Source: Moniliella sp. 'wahieum' (taxonomy: Eukaryota). From it: a stretch of DNA of 64,000 nucleotides. Each line of letters starts with the position of its first letter. Position 1 is the first letter of the stretch. The notes under the pieces are model-generated. The model saw only the letters and a list, made by a program, of their open reading frames with translations. It had not been told where the DNA came from and searched no databases. A program made the translations under genes and the position numbers. Below, piece after piece: positions 3,539-37,023 of this stretch. The stretch is from assembly GCA_003971905.1 (NCBI GenBank), contig RSEE01000091.1:186001-250000 (forward strand), read 5' to 3'.

Positions 3539-4833
3539 ACGAAAGAAATCATATGTTATCGCAAGTACGTACCTTTCCAATTGACAACGCAAGTGTGATT
3601 AACCCCCGGATTCCTGGTGTGGGATGAAGCCTGAGATGCGGTTGAGGCTGAACACCAGCCTCCGAAAGATCAACCCTCAGGACAGCTACCGACGCGGTGG
3701 ACTGGGCAAGGAAGCCAGCCAGCCTTATGTAGTGCACTGGGACTGGGGCACGCGGGCACGCGAGTGGGTGAGGACCCATTGAGTGTGCTTTTCAGTATTA
3801 TACCGTTGCGGTGGCATATTTCTGCCCTCTGGGCTGGAAAAATTGACTTGAAATATGATGGTGCAGTGAGGCCGTATAGGTATAGTACTAGTAGTATATA
3901 GTGAGGGAGGAGAACCAAGAACGTGAACATCAGTCCGTCTCGTTTGCTCCTTCTGCCTATATACTACTAGTAGAGCTCTCCACCTCAGAACGCCAAAATG
4001 GCATTAAGCCACTGTCACGGAGTAGACTTTTGCGAGAGAGTGCCGCTGCGCAGAAGTGTGCGCAGACGAAGAGTTTCGCCAGCATATAAGTCATCGTGGC
4101 GTTTTGGGGGCTGCAGTGTGTACCCGTACGGTCATTATATTATTGCTAGGGTGCGACTTGGCGACACTCGCGTTCCGATGGATCAGCTGCAAAGCATCCT
4201 TCAGACAAGACGCGAAGGCAACGTGGTGAGCCACAACTCTTCAAGCAATAACGTGTCAATAAGGGAAAGAGACAGGGGAAAGAGAGGGGAGATGGAGCGA
4301 GCAGGGCGTGCGCGGCCTGCGAGCGGAACTCTTACGCCCGGCTAAGCGAGGGTCACCGATCCACCGAAGGCACTAAGAATATCATCCGATAGCACTTCCT
4401 CTTATAGTTATAGTCGATCAGATTGTGGGCGCTTGTGTTGTCACACAATGTCACATGTCACGGGCGAAGAGTGCCGCAGCTTTCGGCCTGATTCCCCCCG
4501 CGATGGAAGTCGCGTTCGAGGTTGAATAAGGTACTTTTGGCGGTAAAACTAACTGTAGTGTAGATCTTACTATTTATATATCATCGCGCTTACTATTACT
4601 TTTACTGACAGGCGTGTTGGCAATTAAAGACCCCTAGTATGCTCGACTGGTTCAGGGGGAGGTCAAAGGTCAAGCGGTCAAGCGAAAAAGGTACGGATGG
4701 AAATAGTTATTGACGTATAAGGCATAGCATTCGTAGAGAACAGGCTTTTGCCGACAAGAAAAAACGGGGGTTTCAGAAGTGATGTAAACATGAAGAAATA
4801 GTAGGGAAAAGGTTCCCGACGTTTACGTGTCTG

Positions 4834-8183: not shown

Positions 8184-8420
8184 TCAGATCATCGATCATC
8201 GATCACTAGTCACTAGTCACTAGTCACTAACGTCTCATTAGTGCATTAGCTCACAGCGCTCACATGTCACAAGATGCTTAAAGCTTAAAGCTTAGCGCGC
8301 GCTTAGCGCTTAGCCTAAGCACTTAAAGCTTAAAGCTTAACTTAGTACTTTAGCCGTGCCCCGCACGTCACATGCCATCATGCATGTCATCGATCACTGA
8401 TCGCTCTTGTCACCATATGT
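8184..8420. repeat. Cluster of 7-bp-periodic TNA-N4 short repeats
   Basis: TCA at 8189, 8196, 8203, 8210, 8217, 8224 (spacers TCGA, TCGA, CTAG, CTAG, CTAG); TTA-AAGC runs at 8278-8294 and 8323-8339; TCA-CATG-TCA at 8260. Confidence 0.85.
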
Positions 8421-9638
8421 CATGCACTGAGGGTGAGAGCCGGGTGGGGCCCCACACTGTAGAGAGATGGACATATCCAGTGCTGGGGTGGTCGCGAATC
8501 GATAATCGATAACCGTCAACGGCCAGAAGATGACCCAAATCCTGTGCGATGATGGCACTAGGCCGATGCTCTGGTGGCGTGCATCATCCTTCCTTTTCTG
8601 CCCCTGTGTCTTCCCCTCCAGCTTTTGTAGGAATTCTCACCACGACCGACACCGCTTGCACTAGATACTTCCTTCACCTGAAGCCCGAACTTCCATCATG
8701 CTCGTGATCAGCTCCCTATTAGCTCTTTCAGTCACTAGTCAGTCGGGTCATCGAGTCATCTTAATGATTAATGATTGTCGATTGCGGCCAGTTTTTGTCA
8801 CGGCGCAACAGTTCCCCAGGGTATCTCGCGTGATACACGTGATGGGATGGCAGAACGGCAACACGGCAACGCGGCAGGTTATACTAGGAGCGGAGTTCAA
8901 CGTTAAGTGAAGCTTGAAGCGTCCCGTGATGGAAATCCCGTTAACACGCTAGCGACGTTAACGTTCACGCCTAACGGAAAGGATCCGCAACCGCGGATGC
9001 AACAGCCAAAACAGATTCTGTGACATGCATGCGGCATATAAGTGATGCTAGTGATGCAGGTTGGGAATAACCGGTAGCCAGTAACCGGTAACTCTTTTTC
9101 TTTTCTTGGCATCCAATATTCAGGCATCAGATCTCAGATCTCAGAGGATCTCAGGTACAGAGCGGAATGTTCGGCCGCCCAGTTACTCATCGAGCATCGA
9201 CATCCACTGTTCTCGCTTTCCTCTTCTCGCGCTGGATGATCGGTGACCTCAACGGTCTGATTCAGTTTCATCTCTACCCCGCACCCCTTTTCTTTAGTCG
9301 GATCCCCTCGCGGGGAGAGCCTGCTCCAAGTATTGTCGGCGACGAACTATACTTAGGGTACTATGTAGCAATCGTTCGTGGGAAAATAAGAAGCAAAAGG
9401 GCACAGAGGACACAGTGCAGATCGAGCGTAAGAACAGAGAAGGAGGGAGACGCTCTGGACGACGAAATTGGAAATGGGAGCGAGATCAGCAAAACGATTG
9501 ACAGCTGTCTCGTGTTTTGTATCGTTTAAATCATCTCTATATGCATGGATGTGGCCGAGATGCCGGCGCGCAGCAAAGCCACCATATTGCAACTGGTCAA
9601 TATATGATAGGGCGATTTCACATCGCTCCCATGTTGCA

Positions 9639-9748
9639 TGATGCATGACCGGTGACCGGTGACCGGCGTTTGGAAGGCTATACTAGGGGTCCCAGGCAGG
9701 ATCTCAGCGCTGAGCTGAGCCCTCCGTACACTCAGTACTCAGTAGTGA
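9639..9748. repeat. 7-bp-periodic TNA-N4 cluster
   Basis: TGA at 9639, 9646, 9653, 9660 (spacers TGCA, CCGG, CCGG), followed by TCA-GCGC-TGA and TCA-GTAC-TCA-GTAG-TGA. Confidence 0.75.
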
Positions 9749-11052
9749 CACTCCAGGAACCAGAAACTCTCCGAGAGACCTGAGGCATGGCAGACAAAAT
9801 GTGGAAATGGCGTGGTCGATGGAGACCGCATAGTGTTACACATTGTGAAGGGCGGTGGCAAATCTAAGTTATGATCATCATGGATGAGTTACTAGTTAGG
9901 GGCGCCAGTGTGGGGCGCTACGTCCGAAACCTTTTTTACACATGTTAATGATGCTACTTCAGCAGTTCAGTACGTTCAGTCCGGCTCGGAGGCGATGGAC
10001 TTAACCTCAGCCCCATGCATGATTGATGCATAATAGTATGAGAGATCTGAAGTCCTGATATAGAGCTTGAGGGTGAAGCTTTGGCACAACCGGCGGTGGT
10101 GGTGGTCTAATCCGCGGCCAACGACATCTTTATATTAGAGGGCATATTTCAAGCACACAGTTAACACCCGGGGCCTCTGACAGAAGTAGGACTGCGGAAC
10201 AAGGGGCACAAGAGCGACAAAAGCGAGGAGTTCCTATAGGTGCGTGGCGCGTAGGGCGCGTGAGGCCTGATGCTCAGGCCTGAGGAGGGACTGAAGAGTT
10301 TGGTCAAACACGCGTGTGGCCGTGTGGAGAAGAACAGAAAATGTAGAACGCACACAACTGCCGTTACGCGTGAAAGCGCAAAAGAAGGGCGTAGGCGCGA
10401 GGACATATGAGTACTTGAGTACACTCAACTGAGTAGTGACTATAATATAGCGAGGACTAGTGAGTAATGAGTACGAGTGGCCTTATACACCGGCGCAGCA
10501 AAGGGTCTATCTAGAAGAGCTATCATATATCCTCTCGATCAGATCGATCATCGATCATCGCCACGGCACAATAACACCGTATAAATTCCCGGAAACTCCT
10601 AGACCCGTTTTTTTGTGTGGGTAATACTCGGTTAATTTGTTTCTCAACGGCTGTAACGCGTAACGCGTAACACGAGAACTTCTGTCGCCCAGTTTTGATA
10701 GCTCGCGCTCATTCGTATCCACATGCGCTACCTCAGGTTCGGTAACGGATGTAGGTTCCTGATCTGTCGCCGTTCCTTTGGTTTCCTAAAAAAAGGGGTT
10801 GGCGCCACAACAAACAACATGCGCCGGATGAGAGGAGGTCGGTTTAGGCGCAGCAGCGTTTCTTTGTCCCACAGCCTTAGCCTTAAGCTTTTTGTCAAAA
10901 TGATATGGTAAGTAGTCTTTATTAACGCCCAGGAGCAGCTCAAAGAGCAGCAAATGGAAATGGTGTGGTCGATGGAGATCAAATTGCGAAGGCGGTGGCG
11001 AATCCAAGTTATGGAGTCGAGAACGCCACGTCAGAAAATCATCACACACCAA

Positions 11053-11220
11053 TCACATGTCACATGTCACGCATGATGGCATTTCAACGGGTGATGGAAG
11101 TGACCTTTTGGCCACAAATGACCATAGGTCAACGGTCAACGTTCAACGTCAACGTCGTCAACAGTCTTTCGGGCAGTATGCTTTGCATGTGGGAGAAAAG
11201 CGCGCGGAAGTAACTAGTAA
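11053..11220. repeat. 7-bp-periodic TNA-N4 cluster
   Basis: TCA-CATG-TCA-CATG-TCA-CGCA-TGA at 11053-11076; TCA-ACGG-TCA-ACGT-TCA at 11129-11145; TAA-CTAG-TAA at 11211. Confidence 0.75.
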
Positions 11221-27569: not shown

Positions 27570-30500
27570 GTGGCCGACTTGCCGCTCGACCCGTCTACAT
27601 GTTTACCAGTGGTTCGCCTCGTTCACCCCCCGGGGTCGGGCAACTCTTCCGTAGGTCGCGACTGTCACATGTCAGAACATGGCGGTCGCGCACTTCTGGG
27701 TGTGGACGGTCGCCCACTGTGGCACCTATATTTACAGTGTTGTGCGGGTGCAGCGCAGACAGACAGACAGAAGGTGTAAAACGGATGGAGACGAGAGGAA
27801 GCGGAAACCCGCCGGACGGGGAACGGAACCCGGGCGGAATCACCCAGGACCCGTGCCGTCCGCACAAGTGTATCCAGTCTTTTCTTGATGACGATGGAGG
27901 GGAGCCATTATGGAGAACGACACTTGCGACTCCATCGTACTTAATCATCCATTGAAGCTACAATATATACCTAAACTGTGACAGTTTTGGCACAGCCTTT
28001 TTTTGGAGGAACTTATTCCTCCGCCACCACAACAAGGACAATGACCTCATCGGGACGTATCCCAACAAGGCCTGGCAACTCCCTCCGCCCCCCGACTTCT
28101 CAACGCGCGAAGCTCCCGACCCAGTCACCAAAGCCAATCGCCTCATTCGGGAGGGCTGCCTCAGCCGCGCAGCAAGCACCCTCGTCGGCCAATCCACCAT
28201 TGCCCCTCTCACCCCCGAGACCCAGGCAAGCCTGGAAAAGCTCCACCCCGTTGGAGAGGCGAACCCCTTCAACCTCGGTCCGGGCACAGCCTTCGGCAAC
28301 GCCTCCAGCCGCACTCGTCCTACCCACACAGGCCGCGAGGTACCGCCGGGCACCATCCTCACCGACACGACGGACAGTAACCGCATCGTGGTGGACTTGG
28401 ACGAAATCGACTTTGTTGCTCTGATTGCCACGTTCAGAATCGACGTTGGGGCAGGTCTATCCGGGTGGACCCAGCCCCTCCTGAAAACAGCCCTTGGATG
28501 CGAACGCTTCGTCACCTTTCTCACCGCCCTCACCAAGAGTATTTACCACGGCACTGCCCCTGGACGCGAGCTCCTGTTGGCCTCCCGCCTTACCCCCCTG
28601 GAGAAGGCATCGGGAGGTATCCGCCCCATCGCCTGTGGGGAGCTGATCTACCGCCTGTGCGCCAAGGCCATCGCTCGAGCGATCAAACCCAACAGCTGGC
28701 TTCTCCCCACCCAGCTGGGAGTAGCATCGCAAAACGGGGTGGAGCCTATCGTGCGGATGGTCGAGCGCATGACAGCGCCAGGCGGGGAGAACGATGCGGA
28801 AATGGGCGACTTCAGCCACGTCGCCATGCTCGACTTTACCAACGCGTTCAACACTGTGCGCCGTCGCACACTCGCCAAGGCTCCATGCCTACGCCCCCCA
28901 CCTCCTCACCTTGGGCCGGTGGATCTATGGTTCCCCCACCCAGCTTTGGGTTGCGTCGGGCGGAAATGAGACCAGCGTCCTGTCGGCAGAGGGCGTGCGG
29001 CAGGGCGACCCCCTCGCCCCCTTTTTCTTCTCCATCGCAGTGCGGCCCACGCTAGAGAAGTTGAGCATTGCTCTGCCGCCGGGCACCTGGTGATGGCATA
29101 CCTGGACGACATTACCATTTTCGGTCCAGAGCCAGGCATTACCGGCCAAGCTGCCGAGATTTTGGAAGACGACGCGTCAGCCTCAAGCTCAACCTGCGCA
29201 AGTGCGTCGAGCGGGACCGGGACCAGATCCGGGAGGATGGTCTGCAGGTTCTGGGCACTTGTGGGAGGGGTAGACTGTCGTCGATCGTGGCTCCGGGCCC
29301 AACTGGCCAGTCTGAGGGAGAACATGCCTAAGTTTGATGGCATCACCCGCCAGGGACGCCTCTTACTATGGCGGCTCAGCACTCAGACCAAGCTGCGCCA
29401 CCTGCTCCGCACCATGCAGATGGAAGGAGAGCTAGACGAAGTGCTGGCCGAGATCGATGCCTTCATCTGTACGGAGTTCAGACGGATCCGGGGCGACGAG
29501 GATCCCCAAGGTGCCAAGGACGACCACTTCGACATGCTCATGAGCCTGCCTCTCCGGCTAGGAGGATGCGGCAGCCCGCTTTACTCGTATATCGCGCCCC
29601 ACGCCCGTGCCGCGGCCAACGAGGTCAACGACTATCTTATTACCACTTATGTTGACCGTTCGGGACCGCAAACGGCAGAGGCCAACGCATTTACGAAGCA
29701 ACGCCAGCGCTGCCGCGAGATGTGGGAGAAAAGTCGACAGGAGCTGCTCCAGAAGCTGGACGCTGCCGATGGTCGTCACGTGGTTGAGCACAGCAACCCG
29801 AGCCACAACTGGCTCTCCGCCATTCCGTCCGTCCCATACCTCAGGCTCTCCGACCAGCAGGTCCAGGTTGGTCTCCAGCTCCGCACGCTGTGCCGCACCA
29901 CGCGCAGCATGTGCAAGTGCGGTGTCATGTCCTCGCTGGAGCACATCATGTATTGCACTCGCTCCCAGGCCAAGTTTGGAGCGTTGCATGACGCAGTGCG
30001 GGAGCCCATTCTCCAGCTCCTACGCTCCATTCCCGACACCCATGTCCACAACGAACCAATGGTGGAGGACGAGGATGGCCGGAGACAGAGGACACAGCGC
30101 ACTGACTACCGCGTGATGGGACCCGGAGCACTGGGAGGATCAGGAATGGAGGTCGACCACACGCTGCGCGACACGGGATCACTGGCAGCGCAGAGCGCGT
30201 TCCGGAGGGTGTGCACGCGAGCACCGCAACCCCCTTGGAACGCCGGGAGAAGGAGCTGCTTCGGATGCTTGAACAAGCAAATGCGAGAAGAACGCCAAGT
30301 ACCAGGGACGCACTCAAGAGACGTTTTTCCCCCTGGTTTTGACGACGCGAGGATACTACGGCACCAAGACGGCGAGCAAGTTGTTTGCGCATTGGAAGGA
30401 GTTGGCTACTAATCTCAGTGGAAATGGTTCCTCGCTCGGATGTCAACCACGTTCCTCCGTGTCCATACGCGCTTCCTAGGGTACGGGACCGGATGGCATG

Positions 30501-30600
30501 AGCCGGAGGGTCCTGATATCCTGGCGATCCCCCTGGTTCCTTGACCCTGGTGGCGCCCCTAAGTAACCCCGCAAGATGAACGGTTAGGTTTAGACGTAGC
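27570..30600 (+). mobile_element. CRE-clade (Cnl1/MoTeR-like) non-LTR retrotransposon: RT + CCHC + restriction-like endonuclease
   Basis: Frameshifted polyprotein: ANRLIREGCLSRAASTL...LEKLHP, AGLSGW, RLTPLEK..GGIRPIACGE, QLGV, LDFTNAFN, GVRQGDPLAP, AYLDD, LPLRLGGCG, WLSAIP, CKC...H...C, HDAVR, EP...RTDY...EVD, EKNAKY, FFPLVLTTRG. Coding ends ~30544; element ends not defined. Confidence 0.88.
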
Positions 30601-30734
30601 GTTCCCCCTGTCCCAGCCTTCTTAAGTCTGCCAATGAAATGGACGTTCTCTAGGGATACACTTGGCGCAATGACAAAAACGGCCAACACCTGAAAGATCG
30701 GACATGGCAAATCGAAATTGGGGCGATGATAGGG

Positions 30735-36055: not shown

Positions 36056-36736
36056 CGTCGTTGCCGTCGAGGAGCTCGAACGGCTCGCCACGCCCAGCAA
36101 TCGGAGCCTGAAAGGGACAGGTGCGCTGAGCTAAGCACATGAAATGTTCACAACCCAATTTACTCCACACTTTTGCATCAGGCACCCCGCCATACTCCTA
36201 TTACCCTCATATTACGGAGAACTGGACGGAGTAGTTGGAGAAGTATGTTGGGCAGTGAGTATACGGTCGGGGGGAGGGGGGTATGTGGAGTGGCCAAGAG
36301 CCCATCGGCCTTTAAGCTTCAGTGACATATGTGGCCCGACGTACGCTTCCAGCTTCGAAACTTATATCATCGCAGCTCATCACAGCTCATCACACTCACA
36401 ACAGTTCAAGCGTTGAGGGCGTTTTCGTTGATTATTGGGCGCGGATCCATAGGTGAAGAAAAACGCGGAGGCGAAGACACCAACGACTTGAGGGTTGGAG
36501 GGAGAATGGCTACAAAAATGCATGCTAGCGGGTCGAGGGACCTTTCGAAGGGCCACAGGAGCAGAATGATATTGTGTGTGGAAGCGGGGCCAATGTTCGG
36601 TGCAATTTTGTGGCAACGGAGGCGGAATGCACAACTCTATTCTGCATCCATATCATTGACAGAGCTTAAGGCTGGAACAGGGGAAAACATACTAGCTGGC
36701 CCTCTAACTCAGTAGAGCGCGGTAGCCTGATATCGA

Positions 36737-37023
36737 TGAGTACTGAGTTCAGTACTGAGTCTCAGTACTGAGTACGCCTGAGGCTCTGAAGCTTGAAGCT
36801 TGAAGCTGGAAGCTCTTTATTAGGGCGGATGGGGTAGAAATCCACCCACCTACCCCCGATCGTCAAACCCAAATCACATGCAGGCCCCACCAACAAACGA
36901 AACGTAGGGTTGGCCTGATCCTGATCGGGTAATTTTATCGGTGATCACTGTGTGACCCATGATGTGCATGATGCATGATCGATTAATGACCGGGCCCAGT
37001 GACGCGTGACGCGCGACGCGTGA
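36737..37023. repeat. Dense TNA-N4 heptad cluster between divergent striatin and Tsp2 genes
   Basis: TGA-GTAC-TGA, TCA-GTAC-TGA x2, (TGA-AGCT)x3 at 36787-36807, TGA-TGCA-TGA-TCGA-TTA at 36969, TGA-CGCG-TGA-CGCG-CGA-CGCG-TGA at 37000. Confidence 0.8.

What the first reader, a model, noticed from the sequence alone, without database searches (positions are those of the whole stretch)
8184..8420. Recurring intergenic 'TNA-N4' heptad lattice: a phase-defined rather than sequence-defined element
Seen: many intergenic regions carry short runs in which a TNA trinucleotide (TCA, TGA, TAA, TTA) recurs every 7 bp while the 4-nt spacer varies and is usually palindromic (TCGA, CTAG, AGCT, CATG, TGCA, CCGG, CGCG, GTAC, GATC, ACGT, GCGC, GGCC, TTAA). 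Type example: six in-phase TCA at 8189-8226 switching spacer from TCGA to CTAG without losing register. Others lie at ~508, 4451, 8732-8975, 9128, 9639, 10261, 10654, 11053, 11129, 16138, 20979, 27396, 33293, 34039, 36737-37023, 52798. The pattern is strand-symmetric and each unit forms an A-NNNN-T palindrome. Each TNA is a stop codon on one strand and 7 mod 3 = 1, so three same-type units close all three frames on that strand. Inference: different spacer sequences sharing one period are hard to explain by slippage alone and suggest a cis-element read by a protein binding TNA half-sites in tandem (general regulatory or nucleosome-positioning factor, insulator, origin), or a dedicated mutational process. 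From memory, smut fungi have abundant intergenic TCACGA-type heptamer repeats; whether that is related needs checking.
Basis: partly seen in the sequence, partly recalled or inferred. Interest (0 to 1): 0.8.

Follow-up and report, generated by a model that had tools for sequence, protein, structure and literature searches.

The report
Transposon excision scars forming heptamer repeats
The 7-base repeats between the genes of this fungus are real and are best read as healed scars left when a jumping gene that duplicates seven bases around a T-any-A site cut itself out again; copies of such a jumping gene are still in the genome, so the scars record how it cuts DNA and how the cell repairs the break.

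Summary
The pattern is real, but the unit is narrower than described: TNA + 4-nt palindrome + the same TNA (68 in the window against 2.5 shuffled). The palindrome is two flanking bases plus their reverse complement (110 of 134 isolated units; null 18), and 67 of the 134 are not full tandems, so slippage cannot have made them. Junction variants fit a 7-bp duplication nnTNAnn joined through hairpins opened 2 nt from the tip; the geometry is RAG/Transib-like (211 against 33), not Ac-like (0 against 4). Elsewhere in the genome I found a 4.9-kb family with CTCACTG ends and EnSpm-like transposase remnants: 5 of 6 two-ended copies carry identical 7-bp duplications, and 12 of 12 independent flanks are nnTNAnn. 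The arrays are therefore most likely stacked excision footprints, not a protein-binding lattice. Not shown: an intact transposase, or a filled/footprint allele pair; the family's target bias differs from the scars', so sister families may contribute. The scan noted both the scars and single such elements before, on other DNA of this genome.

The parts
8187..8228 (.). Type array: core ga-TCA-ct with two left-type spacers (TCGA, from left flank GA) followed by three right-type spacers (CTAG, from right flank CT); at least two independent scar-forming events at one site, further units by re-hits or slippage
   Evidence: (label LLRRR); present with variation in the C5 haplotype
8236..8250 (.). 8-bp-period junction variant ca-TTA-g-tgca-TTA-gc (one right-flank base plus full left overhang)
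8249..8271 (.). gc-TCA-ca + gc + gc-TCA-ca (whole 7-bp duplication plus 2 P nucleotides), followed by a right-type unit TCA-catg-TCA
8277..8342 (.). Cluster of TAA/TTA scars (agct and gcgc spacers, one junction keeping both 4-nt overhangs at 8292); 37 bp longer than in the C5 haplotype
8366..8420 (.). Further, partly decayed TCA scars (8368, 8378, 8387, 8410)
8730..8990 (.). Single units at 8732 (left type), 8765, 8908; 8-bp variant at 8748; haplotype-specific GATTG-TC-GATTG at 8774-8785 (same geometry on a non-TNA core)
9125..9145 (.). TCA-gatc array; the C5 haplotype has one more unit
9637..9664 (.). Two-spacer array ca-TGA: TGCA (left type) then CCGG x2 (right type); 14 bp longer than in C5
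10652..10672 (.). TAA-cgcg array, shorter in C5
11051..11071 (.). TCA-catg array
11127..11150 (.). gg-TCA-ac plain 7-bp duplication centred on TCA plus an ACGT unit; 14 bp absent from C5
20977..21004 (.). Two-spacer TGA array (CGCG x2, CCGG); right end departs from the rule by one base
36735..36815 (.). TGA-gtac and TGA-agct scars, 43 bp longer than in C5
52796..52816 (.). ga-TTA left-type array (TCGA x2)

Best explanation
The units are excision footprints of a cut-and-paste DNA transposon. (1) The element inserts at x1x2-TNA-y1y2 with a 7-nt stagger and duplicates these 7 bp (shown for the CTCACTG family). (2) On excision the transposase cuts exactly at the element border and seals each flank into a hairpin (inferred from even palindromes). 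(3) A host nuclease opens each hairpin about 2 nt past the tip, giving two 4-nt palindromic overhangs, y1y2y2'y1' on the left and x2'x1'x1x2 on the right (inferred). (4) End joining usually keeps one overhang and loses the other, giving TNA + palindrome + the same TNA, net +7 bp; less often it keeps parts of both (+6, +8, +9, +11). (5) Re-insertion at either TNA adds more units, left-type spacers always left of right-type ones; slippage may lengthen arrays once a unit exists. The likely source is the 4.9-kb EnSpm-like (CMCT-clade) family with CTCACTG ends found here, probably with sister families (about 0.7 that this clade is the main source).
For: Flank rule met by 110 of 134 isolated units, permutation null 17.8 +/- 3.8, left and right types symmetric (19 and 19 with exactly two matching flank bases on one side only); 67 of 134 obey it without being full tandems (322,621 bases, 27 records). 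Junction spectrum explained as prefix of left overhang plus suffix of right overhang: inner length 3: 62 of 258 (null 14.7); 4: 229 of 443 (35.3); 5: 28 of 204 (1.9); 6: 29 of 326 (1.4); 8: 3 of 191 (0.1). Among 45 perfect 7-bp duplications with 2 inverted bases between, TNA sits at the centre in 25 and at the four other offsets in 1, 1, 1, 3. Even geometry 211 against 32.8; Ac-type 0 against 4.1 and 5 against 6.8; plain centred duplication 15 against 1.1. In 32 aligned copies of a dispersed LTR-like repeat, 5 of 10 internal copy-specific insertions of 4 nt or more fit the rule by my reading, e.g. L098 gaTAAgg to gaTAAgg-cc-TAAgg. Of 24 seven-base length differences between haplotypes, 10 add a unit (0 of 43 for four-base, 1 of 24 for five-base differences). 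Element family: 18 ends found; 17 of 18 have T.A at the centre of the adjoining 7 bases; 5 of 6 two-ended copies have identical 7-bp direct repeats; paralogous empty sites of the C20 copy hold the 7-mer once; one end sits on the second TGA of an existing left-type unit (C23:153503 and its homeolog on C8). Four whole copies are 96.7-98.4% identical at different loci and match the C-terminal half of Tnp2-like proteins (tblastn E 8e-13 to P0030, 2e-6 to P0001; P0001 carries PF02992; P0030-P0001 E 1e-40). Hairpin-flank excision with P nucleotides is established for hAT, Transib, RAG and MULE (PMC5499845, PMC5873905; passages); Artemis opens hairpins 1-4 nt 3' of the tip, giving 2-8 nt overhangs (PMC2175297; abstract).
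Against: No allele pair with the element in one haplotype and a footprint in the other was obtained. No intact transposase was found: the four copies read are frameshifted, give no Pfam hit and no hit in the 5.8-billion search; the two PF02992 loci show no inverted ends or duplication. The family's targets have A/T next to the TNA in 20 of 24 strand-symmetrised positions against 43% in scar-derived targets (p 6e-5; 14 of 18, p 0.003 after collapsing a recurrent 7-mer), so it cannot be the only source as sampled. Scars (198 arrays in 0.32 Mb) vastly outnumber the 12 insertion sites found, which demands long or intense turnover. 24 of 134 isolated units do not meet the flank rule, and 5 of 11 two-spacer arrays fit at one end only. 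Several haplotype differences are one substitution away from a slippage product. No end of the family lies in this window.
Confidence: 0.85

Rival explanations
1. Same footprint mechanism, but the main source is another 7-bp-duplicating family (hAT7, Kyakuja or an unsampled lineage), and the CTCACTG family only shares the target.
For: Target bias of the CTCACTG family differs from that of the scars. hAT7 and Kyakuja families with 7-bp duplications are described in basidiomycetes (PMC12730594). The own-genome searches for PF05699 and PF18758 found nothing but their controls rang nowhere, so absence is not shown.
Against: Ac-type junctions, centred on the complement of the border base (PMC5873905), are not enriched (0 against 4.1; 5 against 6.8). 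12 of 12 independent flanks of the CTCACTG family are nnTNAnn at a background TNA frequency of 0.039, and one end lies inside an existing scar.
Confidence: 0.2
2. No mobile element is involved: a TNA-specific host nuclease or topoisomerase makes a staggered break and snap-back (template-switch) repair copies two bases backwards.
For: The commonest product can be written as a 5-bp duplication plus 2 inverted bases (133 and 135 sites with TNA at either end); scars far outnumber elements.
Against: Products that keep both outer dinucleotides (full 7-bp duplication plus 2 P nt, 25 against 0.7; both overhangs, 2 against 0.1) need two filled-in copies of a 7-mer, each ending in a hairpin, which insertion followed by excision gives directly; a family with exactly this duplication exists.
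Confidence: 0.08
3. Ordinary replication slippage of chance 7-mers (microsatellites).
For: 43 of 134 isolated units and the interiors of homogeneous arrays are perfect tandems; some haplotype differences are plain unit gains or losses. Slippage probably does extend arrays.
Against: 67 of 134 units obey the flank rule without being tandems; palindromic spacers (241) outnumber non-palindromic ones (202) although only 1 in 16 four-mers is a palindrome; only the TnA class is enriched.
Confidence: 0.03
4. A selected cis-element: a protein reads TNA half-sites at 7-bp period.
For: Units lie in the more divergent, presumably non-coding DNA (2 of 846 TNA sites in the most conserved bins against 33 of 371 in the most divergent, partly circular); 33 of 68 window units are identical in the other haplotype.
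Against: Binding would not tie the spacer to the flanking bases or fix the middle base per run; units appear in single copies of a dispersed repeat and inside the transposon itself; arrays vary between haplotypes. Non-coding location follows from loss of +7 frameshifts in genes (inference).
Confidence: 0.03

Closest known systems
P nucleotides at RAG/Transib flank hairpins opened by Artemis (PMC2175297 abstract; PMC5499845 passages)
   Same: Even palindromes of the last flank bases, mostly 2 added bases, 4-nt palindromic overhang, joined by end joining.
   Different: Here both ends carry a 7-bp target duplication, no untemplated additions dominate, and one stereotyped +7 product prevails; the host nuclease is not identified.
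Ac/Ds (hAT) excision footprints in plants, budding yeast and Candida albicans (PMC5873905 passages)
   Same: Target duplication retained with short palindromic insertions from flank hairpins.
   Different: Ac palindromes are centred on the complement of the border base and the duplication is 8 bp; that geometry is not enriched here.
EnSpm/CACTA and the CMCT clade, incl. CNIRT6 and CNEST of Cryptococcus neoformans (PMC12730594 section 3.1; PMC12810828 passages)
   Same: Inverted ends containing CACTG, subterminal short repeats, transposase remnants with C(2)C and H(3)H motifs and similarity to Tnp2-like proteins.
   Different: CMCT elements mostly start with CA and duplicate 2-5 bp; this family starts with CT-CACTG and duplicates 7 bp centred on TNA. 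Speculation: two extra bases at each end and two extra on each side of a 3-bp core may reflect a shifted cutting register.
hAT7 and Kyakuja families of basidiomycetes (PMC12730594)
   Same: 7-bp target duplication in basidiomycete DNA transposons.
   Different: Different transposase class; no TNA-centred target or footprint arrays are described in the passages read; Kyakuja lacks inverted repeats.
10-bp repeats of Ustilago maydis proposed as TE footprints (PMC4081816 passages; primary source not seen)
   Same: Abundant short intergenic direct repeats in a smut genome read as scars of past transposition.
   Different: Other length; no palindromic junction rule or source element is given in the passages read.

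Membership tests
Excision footprint of a flank-hairpin transposon | Direct duplication of a fixed-length target on both sides of the junction | tested here: met
   7-bp duplication centred on TNA: 25 of 45 dup7+2P sites, plain duplication 15 against 1.1
Excision footprint of a flank-hairpin transposon | Junction bases are inverted copies of the flank (P nucleotides) | tested here: met
   110 of 134 against 17.8; junction spectrum
Excision footprint of a flank-hairpin transposon | An element with the same target duplication exists in the genome | tested here: met
   5 of 6 two-ended copies with identical 7-bp repeats; 12 of 12 independent flanks nnTNAnn
Excision footprint of a flank-hairpin transposon | A site seen both filled and, in another allele, as a footprint | tested here: inconclusive
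   Flanks matched only paralogous empty sites (C20) and one shared insertion (C23/C8) among the loci held; homeologous sites of the other copies were not fetched
Excision footprint of a flank-hairpin transposon | Hairpin intermediate shown biochemically | not testable with these tools
   Inferred from junction geometry only
hAT (Ac-type) footprint | Palindrome centred on the complement of the border base | tested here: not met
   0 against 4.1 and 5 against 6.8; my formalisation of the rule stated in PMC5873905
hAT (Ac-type) footprint | hAT transposase in the genome (PF05699) | tested here: inconclusive
   No match, but the control rang nowhere
EnSpm/CACTA (CMCT clade), for the source element | Termini 5'-CA..TG-3' (CACTA/CACTG) | tested here: not met
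   All 18 ends begin CTCACTG: CACTG lies two bases inside
EnSpm/CACTA (CMCT clade), for the source element | 2-5 bp target duplication | tested here: not met
   7 bp in 5 of 6 copies
EnSpm/CACTA (CMCT clade), for the source element | C(2)C and H(3-4)H motifs between second D and E | tested here: met
   CRPC segment hits the Tnp2 profile at E 2e-4; HNTLH...PAE segment aligns to P0030 at E 8e-10; they lie in different frames
EnSpm/CACTA (CMCT clade), for the source element | Transposase_21 domain (PF02992) in the element | tested here: not met
   No Pfam hit in 6 frames scanned from the C34 copy; the genome-wide PF02992 search hit two other loci only
EnSpm/CACTA (CMCT clade), for the source element | Subterminal short repeats inside the inverted ends | tested here: met
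   Short tandem units inside both ends
PIF/Harbinger (TNA or TWA 3-bp target; recalled) | 3-bp duplication and DDE_Tnp_4 transposase | tested here: not met
   Duplication extends two bases on each side of TNA; no PF13359 match, control rang in 1 of 14
Microsatellite by slippage | Units are full head-to-tail copies of pre-existing sequence | tested here: not met
   67 of 134 isolated units are not full tandems

The most novel reading that the evidence does not exclude
An undescribed CMCT-related transposon lineage with CT-CACTG ends and a 7-bp TNA-centred target has hit this genome so often that its RAG-like excision scars, tens of thousands if the 0.32 Mb sampled is typical, are the main source of intergenic tandem repeats: a new route to microsatellite birth and a natural in-vivo record of EnSpm-type hairpin chemistry and of where a fungus opens hairpins.
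Probability: 0.6. Interest if true: 0.76.

Novelty: new variant of a known kind. Interest (0 to 1): 0.62.

Why it matters
If true, (1) it extends the EnSpm/CMCT clade to a 7-bp, TNA-centred target and shifted ends; (2) the scars give a large natural data set showing border-exact, RAG-like hairpin excision for an EnSpm-like transposase, a point on which my searches found no paper; (3) they fix the hairpin-opening position of the fungal repair machinery at about 2 nt from the tip; (4) they show transposon footprints seeding and stacking into tandem repeats, about one array per 1.6 kb in the DNA sampled, which reshapes promoter-side DNA and differs between haplotypes; (5) the rule lets one read past transposition in genomes that have lost the element, and suggests a test for the 10-bp repeats of Ustilago maydis.

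Tried and rejected
Own-genome family searches for PF05699 (hAT), PF18758 (KDZ), PF10551 (MULE) and PF13359 (Harbinger) found nothing; the first two have no working control. The two PF02992 loci (L075, L078) showed no inverted ends or 7-bp duplication and L078's protein has no second copy, so they were not taken as the source. Large haplotype-specific insertions in 119 kb + 90 kb of alignment gave no element with a 7-bp duplication. Structure-based scans of the loci then held found a piggyBac-like element, a foldback element and an LTR-like repeat, none with a nnTNAnn duplication. A 3-bp (Harbinger-like) and a Tc1-like model (spacer from element ends) were rejected because the spacer follows the flank and all 16 palindromes occur. 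The only public run listed (X1, share 0.07; no RNA holder listed) covered coding parts only and none of the arrays: no evidence either way. A scan of metagenome contigs for the element end gave 4 matches, none continuing like the element. Protein searches by shared words found no relatives for L075 or the element remnant. Look-ups of earlier findings by sequence returned nothing. PMC8120014 held nothing relevant.

Full report
Setting. The window is G000:C91:186001-250000 of a 69.5-Mb assembly in 223 contigs. Its genes (GH3, GMC oxidoreductase, BAR domain, tetraspanin, aminotransferase) are broken by introns, so I infer a fungus; earlier notes call it smut-related, which I did not test. C91 is colinear with C5 over about 120 kb and C110 with C11 over about 90 kb at roughly 93% identity: two haplotypes or subgenomes, which I used as a natural comparison. 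Single-base indels are frequent (342 clean ones in 119,006 columns), so some frameshifts may be assembly errors.

The observation. The array at 8189-8226 is as described. Period 7 stands out (37 triples against 17 at period 6 and 5 at period 8). The excess is confined to one form: TNA, a palindromic 4-mer, and the same TNA, 68 times against 2.5 +/- 1.4 in 30 shuffles; non-palindromic spacers are near background (46 against 38.6 +/- 7.1) and no other trinucleotide class exceeds 11. The middle base is repeated in 68 pairs and differs in 17. Without full tandems 29 sites remain. The type array also stands in C5.

The rule. Write the site as x1x2-TNA-y1y2. The spacer is either y1y2 plus its reverse complement (right type) or the reverse complement of x1x2 plus x1x2 (left type). 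In a non-overlapping set of 27 records (322,621 bases, not a random sample) there are 241 palindromic units; of 134 isolated ones 110 obey the rule (flank permutation 17.8 +/- 3.8, maximum 32 in 2000), 24 do not, 43 are full tandems and 67 obey without being tandems. Of 198 arrays 11 have two spacers; 6 read left-type then right-type, 5 fit at one end only, none has the reverse order. By hand (1.6% of TNA sites hit), about 3 two-spacer arrays are expected from chance re-hits, more if only non-coding sites count, so the excess of re-hits is modest and long uniform arrays may owe units to slippage.

The junction spectrum. If a 7-bp site is duplicated and both inner ends pass through hairpins opened 2 nt from the tip, junctions should be a prefix of y1y2y2'y1' plus a suffix of x2'x1'x1x2. 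Observed against permutation null: inner length 3, 62 of 258 (14.7); 4, 229 of 443 (35.3); 5, 28 of 204 (1.9); 6, 29 of 326 (1.4); 7, 3 of 145 (0.1); 8, 3 of 191 (0.1). Among 45 perfect 7-bp duplications with two inverted bases between, TNA is central in 25. Even palindromes (cut at the border, as in RAG, Transib and Muta1; PMC5499845, passages) score 211 against 32.8; Ac-type junctions centred on the complement of the border base (PMC5873905, passages) score 0 against 4.1 and 5 against 6.8. Artemis opens such hairpins 1-4 nt 3' of the tip (PMC2175297, abstract); the fungal enzyme is not identified here. The stretch 8184-8420 parses into about ten such cores, including the rarer +8, +9 and +11 classes.

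Polarised events. In 32 aligned copies of a dispersed LTR-like repeat, 13 insertion rows of 4 nt or more were printed; 3 are end overhangs and were dropped; of the 10 internal ones 5 fit the rule by my reading and one in part. L098 (gaTAAgg to gaTAAgg-cc-TAAgg) and L122 are two substitutions away from any slippage product. Between haplotypes, 10 of 24 seven-base differences add a unit, against 0 of 43, 1 of 24, 4 of 17, 3 of 15, 1 of 14 and 2 of 7 for lengths 4, 5, 6, 8, 9 and 10; several of the ten could also be slippage with one substitution.

The source element. Earlier findings reported single 5-kb elements with 7-bp duplications and CTCACTG ends. A motif scan of my loci hit one end on C34; the fetched region showed a 4,945-bp element with 78-bp inverted ends (90% alike) and the same 7-mer on both sides. 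A search with its end gave 18 ends (17 of 17 candidates scored). Seventeen have T.A at the centre of the adjoining seven bases; the exception (C8) is the homeolog of C23:153503 with two extra bases. Of six two-ended copies, C34, C35, C29, C23 and a 378-bp derivative on C20 have identical 7-bp repeats; C11 does not, though each of its flanks is nnTNAnn. Paralogous empty sites of the C20 insertion hold the 7-mer once. The C23/C8 end sits on the second TGA of a left-type unit, an element caught inside an earlier scar. Four whole copies are 96.7-98.4% identical. They carry frameshifted remnants matching the C-terminal half of Tnp2-like proteins, with a C(2)C and an H(3)H motif, but no Pfam hit of their own. 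CMCT elements mostly have CA..TG ends and 2-5 bp duplications (PMC12730594, section 3.1; PMC12810828, passages), so this family works like EnSpm but fails two membership features; I do not file it as a canonical CACTA element.

Against the reading. No filled/footprint allele pair and no intact transposase were obtained. The family's targets are richer in A/T beside the TNA than the scars (20 of 24 against 43%), so sister or unrelated 7-bp families may contribute; hAT7 and Kyakuja are known 7-bp families of basidiomycetes and my searches cannot exclude them. Scars outnumber the 12 insertion sites found by orders of magnitude. The hairpin step is inferred, not shown. No independent reads cover the arrays.

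Novelty. Flank-hairpin footprints are known; 7-bp duplications are known in other fungal superfamilies; smut 10-bp repeats were proposed as footprints (PMC4081816, passages; the primary paper was not seen). Searches listed no paper describing TNA-palindrome heptamer scars, a 7-bp EnSpm-like family, or footprints building tandem arrays; the library lacks most subscription papers and I did not open supplements. Within this scan the scars and single elements were noted many times on other pieces of the same genome; I had formed the footprint reading before the first look-up. Verdict: real, mutational, a new variant of a known kind; interest 0.62.

Noticed in passing
window 1-64000 against C5 (L009-L015); C110 against C11: The assembly holds two colinear haplotypes or subgenomes at about 93% identity: hybrid or dikaryon.
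   Followed up: partly
window 28019-30647: Non-LTR retroelement-like insertion absent from C5, with over 30 copies truncated at one end; ORF 29093-30412 starts with a YLDD-like motif but has no Pfam hit.
   Followed up: no
window 30539-30657 and 36632-36686; L039:894-1895: Ends of a 1-kb element with 104-bp inverted repeats whose right end reads GGG then TTAA, piggyBac-like (label recalled).
   Followed up: partly
window 4144-4371: Short dispersed repeat with at least 40 copies, nested in several other elements.
   Followed up: no
window 9364-9504; L052:2149-2450: Half of a 302-bp foldback element with TGTCA..TGACA ends and a 5-bp flanking repeat.
   Followed up: no
window 9802-9873 and 10955-11013: Two decayed copies of one sequence 1.15 kb apart in the long intergenic region.
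   Followed up: no
L075:4098-7237 (C17) and L078:3259-6872 (C34): Two Transposase_21 loci with long open frames but no recognisable ends; the C17 one is shared by both haplotypes (L096), the C34 one lies about 8 kb from a CTCACTG copy. Candidates for a trans-acting or domesticated transposase.
   Followed up: partly
C11:228241-233089 (L148): Element copy whose two flanks are both nnTNAnn but differ, as expected from recombination between copies or an adjacent deletion.
   Followed up: no
C23:153503-159519 (L140, L143, L132): A young copy lies about 1 kb inside an older end of the same family.
   Followed up: no
window 8774-8785 and C5 opposite C91:129618: Haplotype-specific 7-bp insertions with the same geometry on non-TNA cores (TTG, GTA), suggesting occasional relaxed targets.
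   Followed up: partly
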